Positions 54,401-62,200 of a stretch of DNA of 64,000 nucleotides are shown here, one piece after another. The stretch's first letter is position 1. Every line of letters begins with the position of its first letter. The position numbers were made by a program. The stretch spans positions 83,824,001 to 83,888,000 of the forward strand of contig NC_083282.1 in NCBI RefSeq assembly GCF_963506605.1, read 5' to 3'. Origin of the DNA: Zootoca vivipara (Eukaryota).

Positions 54401-57400
54401 CTGAGCAACATAGATGTGTGTCTTCACTATCCATCTTTTTGACCAGACACCATCCCAGCAGAAAGCTGTCAGCATTAGGTCCTATTGGACCAGAGAAGGT
54501 GATCATACAAAATGAAAATGACTAAAACTATCATCTAGGTTTAGGAAGCCAATAGTTCTTCCTTCTGATTCTTTGCTTCTCACTTTTGTAACTACCCAAT
54601 TTACTGCTGGCTTTGTATTTTCAAAGGAAGAGTGGCCAATTGTCCCATCGCAGTAGCCCTTGATAGAACCTGAAATCATTTTGCACCTGGTACAACCTGC
54701 CCTAACTAAATACACACAACACCTTATGCCATCTTAAGGCTGCCCCAAAGCAAATGTTTGGCCTTTTCATTATATCTTGAACCAGGGGTCAGCAAACTTT
54801 TTCAGCAGGGGGCCGGTCCACTGTCCCTCAGATCTTGTGGGGGGCCGGACTATATTTTGGAGGGGGGAAAATGAACGAATTCCTATGCCCCACAAATAAC
54901 CCAGAGATGCATTTTAAATAAAAACACACATTCTACTCATGTAAAAACACCAGGCAGGCCCACAAATAACCCAGAGATGCATTTTAAATAAAAGGACACA
55001 TTCTACTCATGTAAAAACATGCTGATTCCCAGACTGTCCGCGGGCCTGATTTAGAAGGCGATTGGGCCACTTCTGGCCCCCGGGCCTTAGTTTGGGGACC
55101 CTGTCTTGAACCCTCCACCTTTCCTTGAAAACTGAACATCTAATTCTGACATAAGTGTTCTGGAGCACTTGAAAGCTTTTTCAATACTAAAACATTTAAG
55201 TTGGTCGCAGTACAATAAGGTTTGTGCTTTGACATCAATTCTACAACAGTGATCCTGAGAAAGCTCTGCATACTTAAATATTAGCTCTGGACCATCTTTC
55301 CAACTTGCCACTAGATTGAGATTTATTAGCAAGTGTTTATTTCTTTGAAGTTTAAAATTATAAATTTTTAAAGCTTTTTTTCTTCCTCATTACATCAGTT
55401 CATAAAAGTTCCACGGTTAACAGTAGATTTACAAGCTAAGTTGTGACAATAATTCTTTGTGAAAGAGTGGTTTAGGAGGGATGGGAACTTGTGGCCTTCC
55501 ACATGTTGTTAGAATCCAACTCCCATCATCTCAAGTCAGTATGGCCGATGGTCAGGGAAGATGGGAGATGGACTCCAACATCATTTGCTTCTCACACCTG
55601 GTTTAGCAGAAAGCAGAGGCTTGATATTCTGGTTCAGCTGCTGTCTGACATTGCAGCCAACTATCTAAAAAGACAGGTGCACATGTGAAGTAATCAACAG
55701 CCTTCTGGATATACACAGGCATTTACTCTTCTGTTTCATTGTAGACAGGTGGCAAGATTCTCCTAGAGTTGGCCTTAACCCATGGGTGCGCTATTATTTC
55801 TTTCAAGGGAAGCCGCAGGGAAGGTGTGCGGTTGAGTACTTTGGATATTAGGTCTTTGGCTCCATCTGACACCCAAGAAGGGAATGAAAAGTTAACCTTG
55901 GAAGAAAAGAATGTTTTAAGTTACATTTTCTTATGAAGCTAGTTGTGTCTTCTGCTTTCTTTCTTTTTAAAAAAAAAACTTGAATGCATTACCCTAGTGC
56001 CAGTTTATCTGCTTCTCCACCCCCATGCAGCTTTCCTAGCTGCACATCAGCTTTGCCCTAAGATGCTCATACTGTTGGACAAGGACATTGTCAATTATGT
56101 ATCTTGTTCAGCACTTCTAGAAATAGGGTTATGTTAGCCATCCCTCAAAGGCCGACATGTCTGTGGGGGTATGGTCAAGGTATAAAAGGTAAAAAAAGAT
56201 AAAGGACCCCTGGACAGTTAAGTCCAGTCAAAGGCAATGATGAGGTTCTGGTGCTCATCTTGCTTTCAGGCCAAGGGAGCCGGCATTTGTCCACAGACAG
56301 CTTTCCGGGTCATGTATATGTACCAGCAGCCACACGCTAGGCATGTGCATTCATTGAACAAGCAGTACACACACTCACCAGACACATAGTCTCTCAGAAC
56401 TCTGGTATACACACACATGTCTTGCTCTTTCCACTCCAGTGTTGGGGGCGGGAGGAAACCCTTCCTTTTACTCTTTCAAGAACAGGCAGAGGGCTCATCT
56501 TCACACTGTGGCATTTAGTGCCAAGATCTGAGATCAAAGAACTTATCTAAAAAGGCAGCCAGGGGCTCTTTTATTTCCTAATCGGAAGATTAAGCACTCT
56601 ATTTGCTCTTTAAAAATTGCTCTCTAAATAATAGAGGGTGTTATCTCCTGACTAGATTTTGAGAAAAAAGCATCAGGGGCTGGCAGGCCACATGATCTGG
56701 CAGGGTGGGGGCAGATCTTGATTGTGGGTTAGCCACCCTGGCTCATGGCTCTTAAGCTTGATGCTATAACCTAATGTGCCCATTCAAGTCTCAATGATAA
56801 ACCATCAAGATTTGGCCCCAAGTTTCAAGCTGTAGATTGCAAATTCCATTTAATCTCAAAGCTTTTTGCTCAGAAGAACATACCTCTTTTATTCTTCGGA
56901 AAGTCTCCATCTGCGTTGGTGCTTCAAATGGTGCATATCCTGCAAGACACTCGTAACAAAGGACACCAACGCACCACACATCGACATTCTCACTGTGTGG
57001 ACTCCCCTCTATCATTTCTGGAGCAAGGTAGTCCGCAGTGCCACAGAACGTTGTCCTCCTATTTTTTTTTAAATAAAAAAAATGGGGTCAGTTTAAAGTG
57101 CCAGTTGAAACCCAGTTTAAAATGGGTTCACTTTTAACAGGACACATTATTCTCCCGATGAAAGCATGAATTTTACTGACCCTATTCTGCCTTTCACAGC
57201 TGCCAAATACACAGAAATTTAGCAGGTGAATTTTTTGCTCACATGAATCTTCCCAACAGTACTGAATTCTTAAAAAATATATGTGTATACATACCTAAGC
57301 GATGGAGCATGCACTGACCATCCAAAGTCTGCCAACTTCAGCTCCCCTCTTAATCCTAACAGGAGGTTTTCTGGCTTAATATCTCTATGAATCACTTTTA

Positions 57401-59270: not shown

Positions 59271-62200
59271 CACACACACACACACACACGGGCTTGGCTT
59301 TGCTCTCTTCACAATACATTTACCTATCAGGTTTTCTTTAAGGGGTATGTACACCCTCAGTGGTGGAGCTTCATACTCCGGCACTGGGGGCAGAGAGCAG
59401 GCGGGGGTGGGGCTGGCGCATGTTCTGGGGGAGTGGCGTGGTGCCCGTAGGGGCGTGGCGCCCATTGTGGGGGCGTGGGGCCCAGCACGGATGGGCGGGC
59501 GCAGCCGCAATGGCGCCCTCGCATTTGCGCTGCCCGGGGCAGAGTGCCCCTATCGTCCTGCCCTTCCTACGCCCCTGTACACCCTCCGAGGCACATTAGG
59601 CCAACAAACAGGGTTGGCTCATCCATGAGGTGGACTGAAGCAGCTGCCTTGGGTGACTGAATCCCCAGGTGGCAAAATGAGAAAGGCTGCCCCTGCCAAT
59701 AAATATTGACTACTCCAAGCTCACCAGCCATATGTTCTATGTTTTGCATTACTTCATCTCCAGCCAGCTCCTCCCATGGAGCAGTAGCCTTTGTATTCGT
59801 ACTCACGGTGGCTGTTCTGATGTCATCAAAGTGTGTTTTCTTCTGTAGCTCCTTGTACAGTTCTCCTCCTGGAGCATATTCTAACATCAGAAAAACCCGG
59901 GTCTGGTCATGGAAATAGTTATACATCCTTAAGATATTTGGGTGTCTAGGCAGTTTTTTTGTTTAAAGGAAAAAAGGAGAGGACCTGTGGTTTAGGTCAC
60001 ATAAGAAGTAAGCCGCTGTGATAGGTAGACAAAATATACAAGGTCTACATACTACATATGAATGTACTAAGCAGATTCCCAAATTGCCCCATCCAGGAAG
60101 AAGATACTATTGAGATACAAGTTGCATTTGAATCACTCAATGCATGCTCCCTTGGAAGCAAATCTCCATTATGTTCAGTGGGGCTTACTCTTAGGCAGAC
60201 GGCGGGCATAAGATTGCAGCTGAAACTAAGGATGCAATCCTATGCACCAACCTGGTGTCCTCCAGATGTTTTGGACTACATAACATCTACATAATGTTTC
60301 AGAGGTGATAATGAGGCTTTCCATGGTTTGACAGATTTAGCACAGAGCAGGTATGCAGACCACGTGGCCCTCTAGATCCTGATGGACTATAATTCCTCAA
60401 CATGCTCTACCAAAGCAAGGTTCCTTAGCTCAGTGGTAAGCACCTGCACTGCATGCAGAAGGCCCTACCTTGTAGCTATTATGATGTTGATGATTTAATT
60501 ACCGTATTTTTCTGTGTATAAGACTAGGTTTTTTAACCAAAAAATTAGGTTTAAAATTGGGGCCCGCCTTATACACGGGTAGTGCTGAGGGGTGTTTTCT
60601 TAATTTGGAGTCCCCAAAAATAAGGGGCGTCTTATACTTGGGGACGTCTTATGTACGGGAAAATACGGTAATTAAATTTGTTAGCCACTTTATCTTTTCC
60701 AAGGAAACACAAAGTGACTTGCAACCAACCAACTCACCAAACCACAGATACATTAAAACAAAAGGGGGGGGGGAATACATTTAAAAAATCAGTGCCTAGC
60801 ATCTTCAGGTGGGGCTAGGAAAGACTATTGTCTGAAACTTCAGAGCTGCTGCCAGTTAACACATAGTACTGGATGAAGTAATCATAAATGAACCAATCAT
60901 AGAGTTTGAAGGGACCCCAAGGGTCACCAACTCCAACCCCCTGCAATGCAAGAATCTCAGCTAAAGCATCCATGACAGATGGCTATCCAATGGTCTGACT
61001 CTGTATGAGGCAGCTGCCTCTGCATTCAGTTGCTTTACCTGAGGTGACTTAAGATTTCTATTTCTCTTCTGAGCTGGTGCTCTAGCTGAGATTTTTCCAG
61101 CAATGATTTGAAAATGACTTTCAAGGCCAAGATGAAGTGAGTTTTTTTCTCCCGGGCCAAGTACACTGCTCCAAATCTCCCCTTGCCAAGTGGCTTGCCA
61201 AATTCAAAGTCTGAGGTGCCCCACATTTTCCTGTAAATCAAAGGGGGCAGTTAAAATCAATGACTAAACCAAGAGAAATATACATTTCCTTTACCAGCAT
61301 GATAATACATCTGGATAATCCCCATCTCTGATGCAGCACTGCTGCCCTCCAGGATCATGTGCTCAGGGGGAGGTTGGCCAGTGTGCTCAGTGACCATGGT
61401 CACATTATCTGCACAGGAGTGTAGCATGTAAAGGGGGAGGACTCTGAATACTTGGGCAGAGGTGTCACAGGTAGTCCAAGCAGGACATGCTGGAGTAGAC
61501 TGATAAGTAAATGCAAGGCAGTTTTCTTATGACTGATCAGGGGCATTGTAATTAAAATATGTCACTGAGAAGATTAAACAAAAATCCATCAAGATATTGC
61601 ACCTGTAAAGAAAGTAGAAGGCAGGCAAAGGTTGACAAAAGGTACATAACCACAGAAAAAAGCACAATGTGTGTACAAGATACACACACCTAGTTTCTAA
61701 CTCAGTATTCAAAGCCATTCTTAAATGCAACATGGCAGAAGATTCCTCCAGTATAATAGTCATAACCAGACACTTTTAAATAGTTACCTGGGAAGCAGAG
61801 AACCAGAGTCACGTTGGGCATTTTCTTGAGATCCATTTTCTTGAGATCCATTTTCTTCTGCAATAACAATTGCACCAACTTAGAGGCATGATGTGATGGG
61901 CAGTAGTTATGGATCTAGTTAAAGTACTTTTCATGTAACTGAATTGCTGTACAATGGACCCTCCGGATATGAATTAAATTCATTCCGTGGATGCTTCTGC
62001 AACCCGAAAAGTCCGTAGGCAGAGGTGCCACTTCTGCGCACACACATGGCGTGATTGAGCGCACATGCACGTGCGGCAGGGAGTATATACTTCCTCGTTT
62101 GCCACGTTCGTAACCCAAAAATTACATATCCAGAGTGGTATGTAACTAGAGGGCCCATTGTATACGTAATAAGTACTTTTTCAAAAGCTGTTCAAACTAT

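What the first reader, a model, noticed from the sequence alone, without database searches (positions are those of the whole stretch)
55723..61857. Intact but divergent Aurora B/C-type kinase gene at an unexpected locus: candidate extra squamate Aurora paralog
Seen: a spliced kinase with all catalytic motifs and no lesions. The class-defining residues are B-type: RMYNYFHD has Asn at the Aurora A G198 / B N142 position that sets TPX2 versus INCENP preference, GELYKELQK has Glu at A T217 / B E161, and the tail is [11 protein letters not shown]. Motifs normally near-invariant in Auroras are altered: GKGRFGAV (usually GKGKFGNV), EIEILSHL (EIQ), [10 protein letters not shown] (CGTLDYLPPE) and YAPFE (PPF). 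The T-loop RRTT resembles Aurora A. Established: human AURKB is on 17p13, the human gene upstream of PRELID3B is ZNF831, and non-mammalian vertebrates are generally described with only A and one B/C gene. Inference: an intron-retaining, fast-evolving duplicate, possibly a germline-specialised analogue of mammalian AURKC.
Basis: partly seen in the sequence, partly recalled or inferred. Interest (0 to 1): 0.72.

Follow-up and report, generated by a model that had tools for sequence, protein, structure and literature searches.

The report
Third Aurora kinase gene of reptiles
This stretch of squamate DNA carries an undamaged copy of an extra cell-division (Aurora) kinase gene that lizards, snakes, tuatara and turtles keep beside the usual Aurora A and B, a gene that databases list under a misleading name and that the papers I could search do not describe.

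Summary
On the minus strand, 61857..55723, lie six GT-AG exons of an Aurora kinase with no stop or frameshift; the start-codon exon(s) are not in the window.

It is not a private oddity. Each exon is 82-93% identical to a clade of automatically annotated "aurora kinase C-like" proteins of squamates, turtles and tuatara, and 67-72% identical to canonical Aurora B.

At least seven of those species also have a canonical Aurora B. So it is an extra paralogue, but not a squamate-only one.

In a 68-row ML tree the clade is monophyletic (100/100) and B-type (100/98). It sits outside canonical bony-vertebrate Aurora B, and eutherian Aurora C nests inside mammalian B.

AU tests reject union with Aurora C (p=0.03). 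They do not reject a sauropsid-stem origin (p=0.08) or union with Aurora A (p=0.11).

Within squamates it evolves no faster than Aurora B. Its relatives lack the N-terminal KEN box, as Aurora C does.

Papers read state that reptiles have two Auroras. Expression and binding partners are untested.

The parts
61788..61857 (-). Exon piece e1: part of the N-terminal tail (22 whole codons). It starts with 2 bases of a split codon, so at least one coding exon lies further upstream. It contains a 15-nt tandem repeat (61819-61857, 2.6 copies).
   Evidence: AG acceptor and GT donor. Matches the same N-terminal segment of the Rhineura protein, 65% over 23 aa, E=9e-6. TRF. No Pfam match.
61039..61230 (-). 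Exon piece e2: Gly-rich loop (GKGRFG), beta3 Lys and helix C (63 whole codons).
   Evidence: Pkinase positions 1-55. 83-94% identical to 21 reptile proteins. Best PDB matches are Aurora A, 86.9 bits.
59807..59945 (-).
   Evidence: Pkinase positions 57-97. PDB best is Xenopus Aurora B at 68.2 bits, against Aurora A at 62. Column 85.
57295..57443 (-). Exon piece e4: catalytic loop HRD and the DFG motif (49 whole codons).
   Evidence: Pkinase positions 103-147. PDB best is Aurora B at 88 bits, against Aurora A at 76.
56884..57058 (-). Exon piece e5: activation loop (RRTT) and P+1 loop (GTADYLAPE), then helices F-G (58 whole codons).
   Evidence: Pkinase positions 155-208. In PDB, Aurora C scores 78.5 bits and mouse Aurora A and Aurora B both about 76.6.
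55723..55896 (-). Exon piece e6: C-lobe end and the B-type tail (57 codons plus TAA stop at 55725-55723).
   Evidence: Pkinase positions 227-263. In PDB, Xenopus Aurora B scores 69.9 bits, Aurora C 46.5 and Aurora A 45.
55322..55341 (-). Two AATAAA hexamers, 381 and 395 nt downstream of the stop. They are candidate poly(A) signals.
   Evidence: Pattern scan. Not otherwise tested.
48205..48456 (-). Neighbouring gene: N-terminal PRELI-domain exon of the PRELID3B-like gene, in the same orientation. A G+C-rich, promoter-like stretch lies at about 49.5-50.4 kb, roughly 5 kb downstream of the Aurora stop codon.
   Evidence: PF04707 PRELI, E=6.7e-18, profile positions 1-53. Composition.

Best explanation
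The region holds the kinase-domain exons and part of the N-terminal tail of a real, conserved, third Aurora kinase gene of non-avian reptiles.

Its protein is a B-type Aurora. It has Asn at the TPX2/INCENP-discriminating position and the Aurora B C-terminal tail. All catalytic residues and the activation-loop Thr are kept, so it is most likely an active kinase.

It belongs to a clade found in squamates, tuatara and turtles. Databases call the clade 'aurora kinase C-like', but it is orthologous neither to eutherian Aurora C nor to canonical Aurora B.

The clade has its own fixed changes in the Gly-rich loop (K to R), helix C end (Q to L), the DFG-preceding strand (I to L), the P+1 loop (YLPPE to YLAPE) and the PPF motif (to APF).

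Inferred, not shown: it works like Aurora B/C, as an INCENP-activated passenger-complex kinase. Having lost the N-terminal KEN degron, it may be a more stable paralogue used in meiosis or early embryos, in parallel with mammalian Aurora C.

On origin, I favour a split from canonical Aurora B before the radiation of bony vertebrates, with later losses in other lineages (about 55%). The alternative is a duplication in the reptile stem followed by a burst of change (about 35%).
For: Anatomy.

Membership in the reptile clade:
- Each of the five kinase pieces scores highest against the 12 clade rows. Summed mean bits are 512, against 416 for 39 canonical B rows, 408 for 2 Aurora A, 393 for 9 Aurora C and 385 for 3 invertebrate rows.
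- The window has 11 of 12 clade-diagnostic states. It deviates at none of the columns that are invariant in all 12 clade rows.

Extra copy: the same species hold a canonical B as well.

Tree (68 rows x 273 columns, LG+C20 PMSF):
- clade monophyletic, 100/100;
- B-type as against A, 100/98;
- canonical bony-vertebrate B plus eutherian C, 90/93;
- eutherian C sister to eutherian B, 99/95.

Union with Aurora C is rejected: delta lnL 33.1, p-AU 0.0315.

Constraint: the patristic-distance ratio of the clade to Aurora B is 0.83 within four squamates and 1.26 between squamates and turtles.

KEN box: present in 36 of 38 canonical B N-termini and 2 of 2 chondrichthyan ones. It is present in 1 of 11 clade N-termini, and there at an odd place, and in 0 of 4 Aurora C.

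Old origin:
- With the coelacanth row removed, the clade is still sister to all 48 canonical B and C rows.
- The clade keeps Trp where every canonical bony-vertebrate B has Phe. This was the one strict column of its kind; six control clades gave 0.
- It lacks the canonical EKEG motif.
- For 8 of 11 clade N-termini the best non-clade match among 51 N-termini is a ray's B-type protein, at a KKQLS-S motif.

Locus: CTSZ-like, tubulin-beta, ATP-synthase-epsilon and PRELI exons, in that order, precede it. Canonical B is fused to TMEM107 in gene models of a turtle, echidna and a fish.
Against: - No start codon and no first exon were found in the window. No expression data and no orthologous DNA were available, so transcription and dN/dS in this genome are unknown.
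- The AU test does not reject the clade joined with sauropsid canonical B (delta lnL 29.7, p=0.078).
- The AU test does not reject the clade joined with Aurora A either (delta lnL 21.9, p=0.108; only 2 Aurora A rows were available).
- The coelacanth 'second B' groups with the clade at 96/91. It moves next to ray-finned B when the clade is removed, and it shares only 3 rare states with the clade, against up to 2 for other rows. Long-branch attraction is therefore possible.
- No column carries a clean sauropsid-, amniote- or tetrapod-specific Aurora B state that could date the split.
- The N-terminal matches have weak E-values (0.002-3.7) in a small set.
- Exon e2 is nearer to Aurora A and invertebrate Auroras than to B (95.5 and 95.9 against 88.1 bits).
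- INCENP binding and germline use are inferences only.
Confidence: 0.75

Rival explanations
1. Reptile-stem duplicate. Canonical AURKB was copied, with its introns, to the PRELID3B neighbourhood in the common ancestor of lepidosaurs and turtles. The copy changed rapidly, then settled under constraint. Its deep position in the tree would be a long-branch effect.
For: - The AU test does not reject the clade plus the 17 sauropsid canonical B rows as one group (p=0.078).
- Only reptile members were found among the listed hits.
- The stem is long (0.46) while crown rates are ordinary.
- The coelacanth link is unstable.
- The C-terminal tail is nearest to bony-vertebrate B.
Against: - The ML tree puts the clade outside a canonical bony-vertebrate B group with 90/93 support, and also when the coelacanth row is removed.
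- This reading needs Phe back to Trp (two base changes, by the standard code) at column 4, and loss of EKEG and of the M in RR-x-T-M.
- The clade's N-terminal motif is closer to chondrichthyan than to sauropsid B.
- It would need a further loss in archosaurs, since no bird or crocodilian member was listed.
Confidence: 0.35
2. Aurora A relative. The gene would be an old local duplicate of AURKA. AURKA lies on the same chromosome as PRELID3B in human and chicken (partly recalled). The copy would have acquired B-like features by convergence.
For: - The AU test does not reject the clade plus Aurora A (p=0.108).
- Exon e2 and the RRTT loop are A-like or ancestral.
- AURKA is on chromosome 20 in chicken and human (table in PMC9570461).
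Against: - The B-type grouping has 100/98 support.
- The clade shares with B-type rows Asn at column 85, Leu at column 171 and Cys at column 201, against the states shared by A and invertebrates.
- The C-terminal exon scores 69.9 bits against Aurora B and 45 against Aurora A.
- The A-like states are also those of invertebrate Auroras, so they are ancestral rather than A-specific.
Confidence: 0.07
3. Canonical Aurora B moved. This would be the genome's only B/C gene, and the PRELID3B neighbourhood would be its normal place in squamates.
For: I could not search this assembly, so a second B-type gene in this very genome is not shown.
Against: - Nine squamate and turtle species hold both a clade member and a canonical B.
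- The window's pieces are 67-72% identical to canonical B of squamates, against 86-93% to squamate members of the clade.
- Canonical B is fused with TMEM107 in a turtle gene model.
Confidence: 0.03
4. A dying copy in this species. The exons would look intact, but the gene would have lost its 5' exon(s) or its promoter and would no longer be expressed.
For: - No start codon or upstream coding exon was found in the 2.1 kb left of the window.
- No protein identical to the window's exon was in the protein collection (best 94%).
Against: - 99 of 99 universally invariant columns are kept, with no deviation at clade-invariant columns.
- All splice sites are canonical.
- Relatives have N-terminal exons that could simply lie beyond coordinate 64000.
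Confidence: 0.05

Closest known systems
Reptile proteins annotated 'aurora kinase C-like', 'aurora kinase C' or 'aurora kinase B-like' (for example Rhineura floridana P0003, Tiliqua scincoides P0004, Pogona vitticeps P0005, Gopherus evgoodei P0018, Sphenodon punctatus P0021)
   Same: The five kinase pieces are 82-93% identical to them. The window has 11 of 12 diagnostic states. The N-terminal segment is the same. This is the family the window's gene belongs to.
   Different: The window adds a 5-residue tandem duplication in the N-terminal piece. It has Ala instead of the clade's usual Thr/Pro in GT-x-DYLAPE, and Gln instead of Arg at one diagnostic column.
Canonical vertebrate Aurora B (AURKB; Xenopus Aurora B-A and human Aurora B in the PDB)
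   Same: It shares the B-type Asn, the HAPSLRR start of the activation loop, and the C-terminal [15 protein letters not shown] tail. Three of five pieces score best against Aurora B in the PDB. It groups with B-type rows at 100/98.
   Different: Identity is 67-72%. It lies outside the canonical clade. It has Trp rather than Phe before the kinase domain, no EKEG, and RRTT rather than RR[KR]T. Its relatives lack the KEN box. The locus is beside PRELID3B rather than TMEM107.
Eutherian Aurora C (AURKC)
   Same: It is an extra B-type paralogue beside Aurora B, without the N-terminal KEN box. Exon e5 scores marginally best against Aurora C in the PDB.
   Different: Aurora C nests inside mammalian B, as sister to eutherian B (99/95). 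Union with the reptile clade is rejected (p=0.0315). Identity is 66.5-69.6%. Aurora C keeps GKGKFGNV, EIQ and YLPPE. The literature dates Aurora C to eutherians (passages of PMC5796022 and PMC8470780).
Aurora A (AURKA)
   Same: It shares the RRTT activation loop, Trp before the kinase domain, and an FILALK-type beta3 strand. Exon e2 scores best against Aurora A in the PDB.
   Different: It has Asn rather than Gly at the G198-equivalent position, a B-type tail, and a short N-terminus. The shared states are also present in invertebrate Auroras.

Membership tests
Aurora kinase family (eukaryotic Ser/Thr protein kinase) | Complete protein-kinase catalytic domain with the Gly-rich loop, beta3 Lys, helix-C Glu, HRD, DFG and APE | tested here: met
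   Pkinase profile positions 1-263 are covered in order by five exon pieces. 99 of 99 covered columns that are invariant in 68 Auroras are kept.
Aurora kinase family (eukaryotic Ser/Thr protein kinase) | Closest relatives are Aurora kinases, and the activation-loop RR-x-T Thr is present | tested here: met
   All best PDB matches for the five pieces are Aurora A, B or C. RRTT is seen.
Reptile 'aurora kinase C-like' clade | Twelve states fixed in at least 90% of 12 clade rows and present in at most 5% of 56 other rows | tested here: met
   11 of 12 are present in the window. The exception is Gln for Arg at column 221.
Reptile 'aurora kinase C-like' clade | Every exon is nearest to clade members | tested here: met
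   Mean bits per piece are higher for the clade in 5 of 5 pieces. The top 21 hits of exon e2 are all clade members.
B-type Aurora (passenger-complex kinases Aurora B/C) | Asn at the position that is Gly198 in human Aurora A (numbering recalled) | tested here: met
   Column 85 is Asn in the window, the clade, canonical B, Aurora C and chondrichthyan B. It is Gly in Aurora A and invertebrate rows.
B-type Aurora (passenger-complex kinases Aurora B/C) | Groups with Aurora B rather than Aurora A in a phylogeny | tested here: inconclusive
   The ML tree gives 100/98 for a B-type group that includes the clade. The AU test does not reject union with the 2 Aurora A rows (p=0.108).
B-type Aurora (passenger-complex kinases Aurora B/C) | Binds and is activated by the INCENP IN-box; localises as a chromosomal passenger | not testable with these tools
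No complex prediction was run.
Canonical AURKB orthologue | Falls inside the canonical bony-vertebrate Aurora B clade | tested here: not met
   It lies outside a 90/93 clade of 48 rows, and also when the coelacanth row is removed. A sauropsid-B union is not statistically excluded (p=0.078).
Canonical AURKB orthologue | N-terminal KEN box | tested here: inconclusive
   The window lacks the first exon(s). In relatives KEN is present in 1 of 11, at an odd place, against 36 of 38 canonical B.
Canonical AURKB orthologue | Locus beside TMEM107 | tested here: not met
   The window's neighbours are PRELI, ATP-synthase-epsilon, tubulin and Peptidase_C1 exons. No Pfam match was found in the 16 ORFs tried upstream of the gene. 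TMEM107-Aurora B fusions occur in turtle, echidna and fish gene models.
Eutherian AURKC orthologue | Sister to eutherian Aurora B within mammals | tested here: not met
   Aurora C is monophyletic (100/98) and sister to eutherian B (99/95). The clade plus Aurora C is rejected (p=0.0315).
Eutherian AURKC orthologue | Germline-restricted expression | not testable with these tools
   No expression data were available.
AURKA orthologue | Gly at position 198, a long N-terminus with the A-box, and an Aurora A C-terminus | tested here: not met
   The window has Asn at column 85 and a B-type tail. Clade N-termini are 24-112 aa, against 157-159 aa in the two frog Aurora A rows.

The most novel reading that the evidence does not exclude
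The gene represents a third ancient vertebrate Aurora lineage. On this reading it split from Aurora B before the ray-finned and lobe-finned fishes diverged. It survives only in lepidosaurs, turtles and perhaps the coelacanth. It independently took the KEN-less, possibly germline, role that Aurora C plays in placental mammals.
Probability: 0.4. Interest if true: 0.7.

Novelty: new member of a known kind. Interest (0 to 1): 0.5.

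Why it matters
Accounts of Aurora kinase evolution give reptiles two genes (A and an undivided B/C) and treat a third Aurora as an invention of placental mammals (passages of PMC5796022 and PMC8470780).

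A conserved third, B-type, KEN-less Aurora in lizards, snakes, tuatara and turtles changes that picture. It is mislabelled as 'C-like' by annotation pipelines.

It offers a natural replicate for asking why a lineage keeps a second passenger-complex kinase, for example for meiosis, large yolky oocytes or long sperm storage.

It also supplies naturally varied Gly-loop and P+1-loop sequences in an otherwise near-invariant kinase.

Finally, it warns against transferring the name AURKC to non-mammals.

Tried and rejected
- Joined model: not made. The spliced model was never joined. All searches with window sequence were done exon by exon, and the trees use database relatives only, so no tree places the window's own full protein.
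- PDB searches: of limited use for A-versus-B ranking, because hundreds of Aurora A entries fill the 60 rows shown. For exon e2 no Aurora B score was visible.
- Representative search at 50% identity: it collapsed the clade into one Aurora B representative and gave no names.
They were left out of all trees.
- Clade-specific derived states of sauropsid, amniote or tetrapod Aurora B, to date the duplication: 0 informative columns.
- Rare states shared by the clade and the coelacanth paralogue: 3 columns, against up to 2 for other rows, which is too few.
- Upstream exon search: the only candidate (62807-62839, 11 aa, E about 2) overlaps a polypyrimidine tract in front of an AG and has no in-frame ATG. 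I rejected it as chance.
- Tetraodon protein P0124: it ranked high, but it is an Aurora A model with an internal duplication.
- Literature: seven searches listed no paper that describes a third reptile Aurora. AURKC with 'lizard' gave 6 papers and AURKC with 'turtle' gave 1, none on the topic by title. The one of them I read in passages (PMC6173279) is not on it.
The sequence lists of PMC5796022, which would show which turtle genes its authors saw, were not seen.

Full report
**What is in the sequence.** The finding's span, read on the minus strand, contains six exon pieces:
- e1 61857..61788
- e2 61230..61039
- e3 59945..59807
- e4 57443..57295
- e5 57058..56884
- e6 55896..55723

All six acceptors are AG and all five donors are GT. 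Intron phases are consistent, and three split codons all read Arg. There is no internal stop, and the frame ends in TAA at 55725-55723. Introns measure 557, 1093, 2363, 236 and 987 bases.

Pfam's protein-kinase model matches pieces e2-e6 in order over profile positions 1-263. The short piece e1 matches nothing.

Every search with window sequence was made exon by exon, and the joined step was left out. As a result, no tree places the window's own full-length protein.

**Limits of 'intact'.** Piece e1 begins with two bases of a split codon and has no in-frame ATG. The N-termini of 11 relatives, run by tblastn against the window, hit only e1 and e2. For e1 the Rhineura protein gives 65% over 23 residues, E=9e-6.

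The single weak upstream candidate (62807-62839) is a polypyrimidine tract before an AG, with no usable ATG. The first coding exon(s) therefore lie beyond coordinate 64000 or are too diverged to see. About 299 codons are visible.

Piece e1 carries a perfect 15-nt tandem repeat of 2.6 copies, which duplicates five residues. Two AATAAA hexamers lie 381 and 395 nt after the stop.

**What it belongs to.** Exon e2, searched against proteins longer than itself, gave 309 proteins with E up to 1e-5 among 338 candidates. The top 21 were all reptile proteins at 83-94% identity:
- squamates: Rhineura, Tiliqua, Pogona, Thamnophis, Pantherophis, Pituophis, Liasis, Erythrolamprus, Naja, Crotalus, Gekko (two species), Paroedura, Euleptes;
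- turtles: Chrysemys, Chelonoidis, Dermochelys, Gopherus, Chelonia, Lepidochelys;
- tuatara.

Most are named 'aurora kinase C-like'. The next hits drop to 75% or less.

Each of the five kinase pieces, compared locally with 68 named Auroras, scores highest against the 12 clade rows:

| Group | Rows | Summed mean bits | Identity |
|---|---|---|---|
| Reptile clade | 12 | 512 | 82-93% |
| Canonical B | 39 | 416 | 66.8-72.3% |
| Aurora A | 2 | 408 | not noted |
| Eutherian Aurora C | 9 | 393 | 66.5-69.6% |
| Invertebrate Auroras | 3 | 385 | not noted |

Rhineura is nearest (93.3%), then Tiliqua (90.1%) and Pogona (89.0%). Turtles and tuatara are at about 82-83%. The window is therefore squamate. 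No identical protein was in the collection.

**The 'altered motifs' are the clade's signature.** Twelve alignment columns carry a state fixed in at least 90% of the 12 clade rows and present in at most 5% of the 56 other rows. They include:
- Arg in GKGRFG;
- Leu in EILSHL;
- Leu in ELKLADFG;
- Ala in YLAPE;
- Ala in APF.

The window has 11 of the 12. It differs at none of the columns that are invariant in all 12 clade rows. It keeps 99 of 99 covered columns that are invariant in all 68 Auroras. This copy is a well-kept member, not a decaying one.

**It is an extra gene.** A search with the Gopherus member scored 8000 candidates; 7135 had E up to 1e-20 and the best 120 were listed. It returned canonical B-type proteins from the same species that have a clade member: Tiliqua, Pogona, Paroedura, Liasis, Erythrolamprus, Euleptes and Dermochelys. 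Naja and Protobothrops followed.

Canonical B-type gene models of Caretta, echidna and the fish Prochilodus are fused to a TMEM107 domain. This shows canonical B beside TMEM107 in those lineages. By recall, that is also its place on human 17p13.

The window instead shows this order:
- Peptidase_C1 (CTSZ-like) exons at 9-11 kb, minus strand;
- a tubulin last exon at 23773-24897, plus strand;
- an ATP-synthase-epsilon exon at 30168-30407, minus strand;
- the N-terminal PRELI exon at 48205-48456, minus strand;
- the Aurora gene.

By recall, this is the human 20q13.32 order CTSZ-TUBB1-ATP5F1E-PRELID3B. Whether this very genome also has AURKB could not be checked.

**Phylogeny.** I aligned 68 named proteins: 12 clade rows, 42 B-type, 9 eutherian Aurora C, 2 frog Aurora A, and 3 invertebrate outgroups. 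I cut the alignment to the kinase domain and tail (273 columns kept) and built a careful IQ-TREE tree under LG+C20+F+G4. The bootstrap had not fully settled (correlation 0.984). Support values (ultrafast bootstrap / SH-aLRT):

| Grouping | Support |
|---|---|
| Reptile clade monophyletic | 100/100 |
| All B-type rows, against Aurora A | 100/98 |
| Two chondrichthyan B rows outside the rest | 93/78 |
| Clade plus a second coelacanth B-type protein (P0198) | 96/91 |
| Canonical bony-vertebrate B (48 rows, Aurora C included) | 90/93 |
| Eutherian Aurora C sister to eutherian B, inside mammals | 99/95 |

AU tests gave these results:

| Groups held together | Delta lnL | p-AU | Outcome |
|---|---|---|---|
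| Clade + Aurora C | 33.1 | 0.0315 | rejected |
| Clade + 17 sauropsid canonical B | 29.7 | 0.078 | not rejected |
| Clade + Aurora A | 21.9 | 0.108 | not rejected |

Without the coelacanth row, the clade stays sister to all 48 canonical rows. Without the clade, the coelacanth row moves next to ray-finned B. The coelacanth row shares only 3 rare states with the clade, against up to 2 for any other row.

So the coelacanth link is not secure. The age of the duplication is not settled by these 273 columns.

**Characters bearing on age.** Canonical Aurora B is so uniform that no column carries a clean sauropsid-, amniote- or tetrapod-specific state.

One strict column separates canonical bony-vertebrate B (Phe) from the clade, the coelacanth paralogue, chondrichthyan B, Aurora A and invertebrates (Trp). 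The same count gave 0 in six control clades, Aurora C among them.

By eye, the clade also differs from canonical B in these ways:
- it lacks the canonical EKEG;
- it lacks the Met of RR-x-T-M;
- it has FLMLEY, like chondrichthyan B;
- yet it shares HAPSL and the tail with bony-vertebrate B.

The N-terminal KKQLS-S motif of the clade finds a ray's B-type protein as the best non-clade match for 8 of 11 N-termini among 51. Individual E-values are weak, at 0.002-3.7.

Together these lean towards an origin before the bony-vertebrate radiation. A reptile-stem origin followed by a burst of change remains open.

**Rate and constraint.** In the four squamates that have both genes, the patristic-distance ratio of the clade to Aurora B averages 0.83. 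Between squamates and turtles it is 1.26. Identities are 86-95% for the clade and 84-92% for B.

The divergence is therefore on the stem branch (0.46 changes per column). The gene is not fast-evolving today. Intact orthologues across lepidosaurs and turtles imply long purifying selection. A proper dN/dS needs orthologous DNA, which no tool here offers.

**How it most likely works.**

*Shown:*
- a complete catalytic core;
- the activation-loop Thr;
- the B-type Asn;
- the B-type C-terminal tail, where exon e6 scores 69.9 bits against Xenopus Aurora B and 45 against Aurora A.

*Also shown:* relatives of the window's gene lack the N-terminal KEN box. It is present in 1 of 11, at an odd place, against 36 of 38 canonical B and 2 of 2 chondrichthyan B. 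Aurora C has it in 0 of 4.

*Inferred:*
- It is an INCENP-activated passenger-complex kinase.
- Without the KEN degron it would escape APC/C-Cdh1 turnover. The degron role is recalled. PMC8470780 notes in a passage that Aurora C lacks the KEN motif.
- The title of Schindler et al. 2012, seen only in a reference list, says Aurora C is more stable than B in oocytes.
- The clade's Gly-loop and P+1-loop changes may shift nucleotide or substrate handling.

No expression, binding or activity data exist here.

**Comparison with print.** I read passages of two papers:
- PMC5796022 states that Alligator and Chrysemys have two Aurora genes (A and BC), and that B and C arose in placental mammals.
- PMC8470780 repeats this model and says birds lost the BC gene.

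The protein collection nevertheless holds a Chrysemys clade member (P0013). It also holds bird B-type proteins that group with Alligator (97/59).

Seven literature searches listed no paper on a third reptile Aurora. Supplements are closed, and subscription journals are not covered.

**Verdict.** It is wrong in scope and tempo. The gene is reptile-wide, already annotated under a misleading name, and not fast-evolving now. It is an ordinary member of an under-described Aurora lineage, whose age and role are the open and interesting questions.

Noticed in passing
window 7117-11428 (-), 23773-24897 (+), 30168-30407 (-), 48205-48456 (-): The rest of the window carries CTSZ-like (Peptidase_C1), beta-tubulin, ATP-synthase-epsilon and PRELI-domain exons. 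By recall this is the order of human 20q13.32. G+C-rich stretches at about 0-2 kb, 12-14 kb, 30-32 kb and 49.5-50.4 kb look like promoters.
   Followed up: partly
window 7136-7332: A run of 197 N lies inside a CTSZ-like coding exon. It was left as it is.
   Followed up: no
window 43402-44298 (+): An open frame of 299 aa matches reverse transcriptase (RVT_1, E=9.6e-34). It is followed by a further 275-aa open frame at 44322-45146. This is a LINE-type element lying downstream of the PRELI N-terminal exon, likely within a PRELID3B-like intron.
   Followed up: no
window 59212-59286 and 59360-59560: An (ACAG)n microsatellite of 18.8 copies and a very G+C-rich stretch lie in the intron between e3 and e4.
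   Followed up: no
window 61819-61857: A perfect 15-nt tandem repeat (2.6 copies) inside coding piece e1 duplicates five residues. The relatives fetched do not show this duplication.
   Followed up: partly
proteins P0148, P0173, P0184, P0185, P0204 (birds): Birds do have B-type Aurora proteins in the collection, named 'aurora kinase C-like'. In the tree they group with Alligator Aurora B. This contradicts statements in PMC5796022 and PMC8470780 that birds lost the B/C gene.
   Followed up: partly
proteins P0197 and P0198 (Latimeria chalumnae): The coelacanth has two B-type Aurora proteins. One is canonical. The other is divergent, groups with the reptile clade at 96/91, and is unstable in position.
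   Followed up: partly
proteins P0195, P0428, P0206: Gene models of Caretta, echidna and Prochilodus fuse TMEM107 to Aurora B. These are read-through models, and they reveal conserved TMEM107-AURKB adjacency.
   Followed up: yes
proteins P0375-P0377, P0389, P0393: Some mammalian Aurora C gene models carry a KRAB domain (PF01352) or are named zinc finger protein 264. They are read-through models with the neighbouring zinc-finger genes.
   Followed up: no
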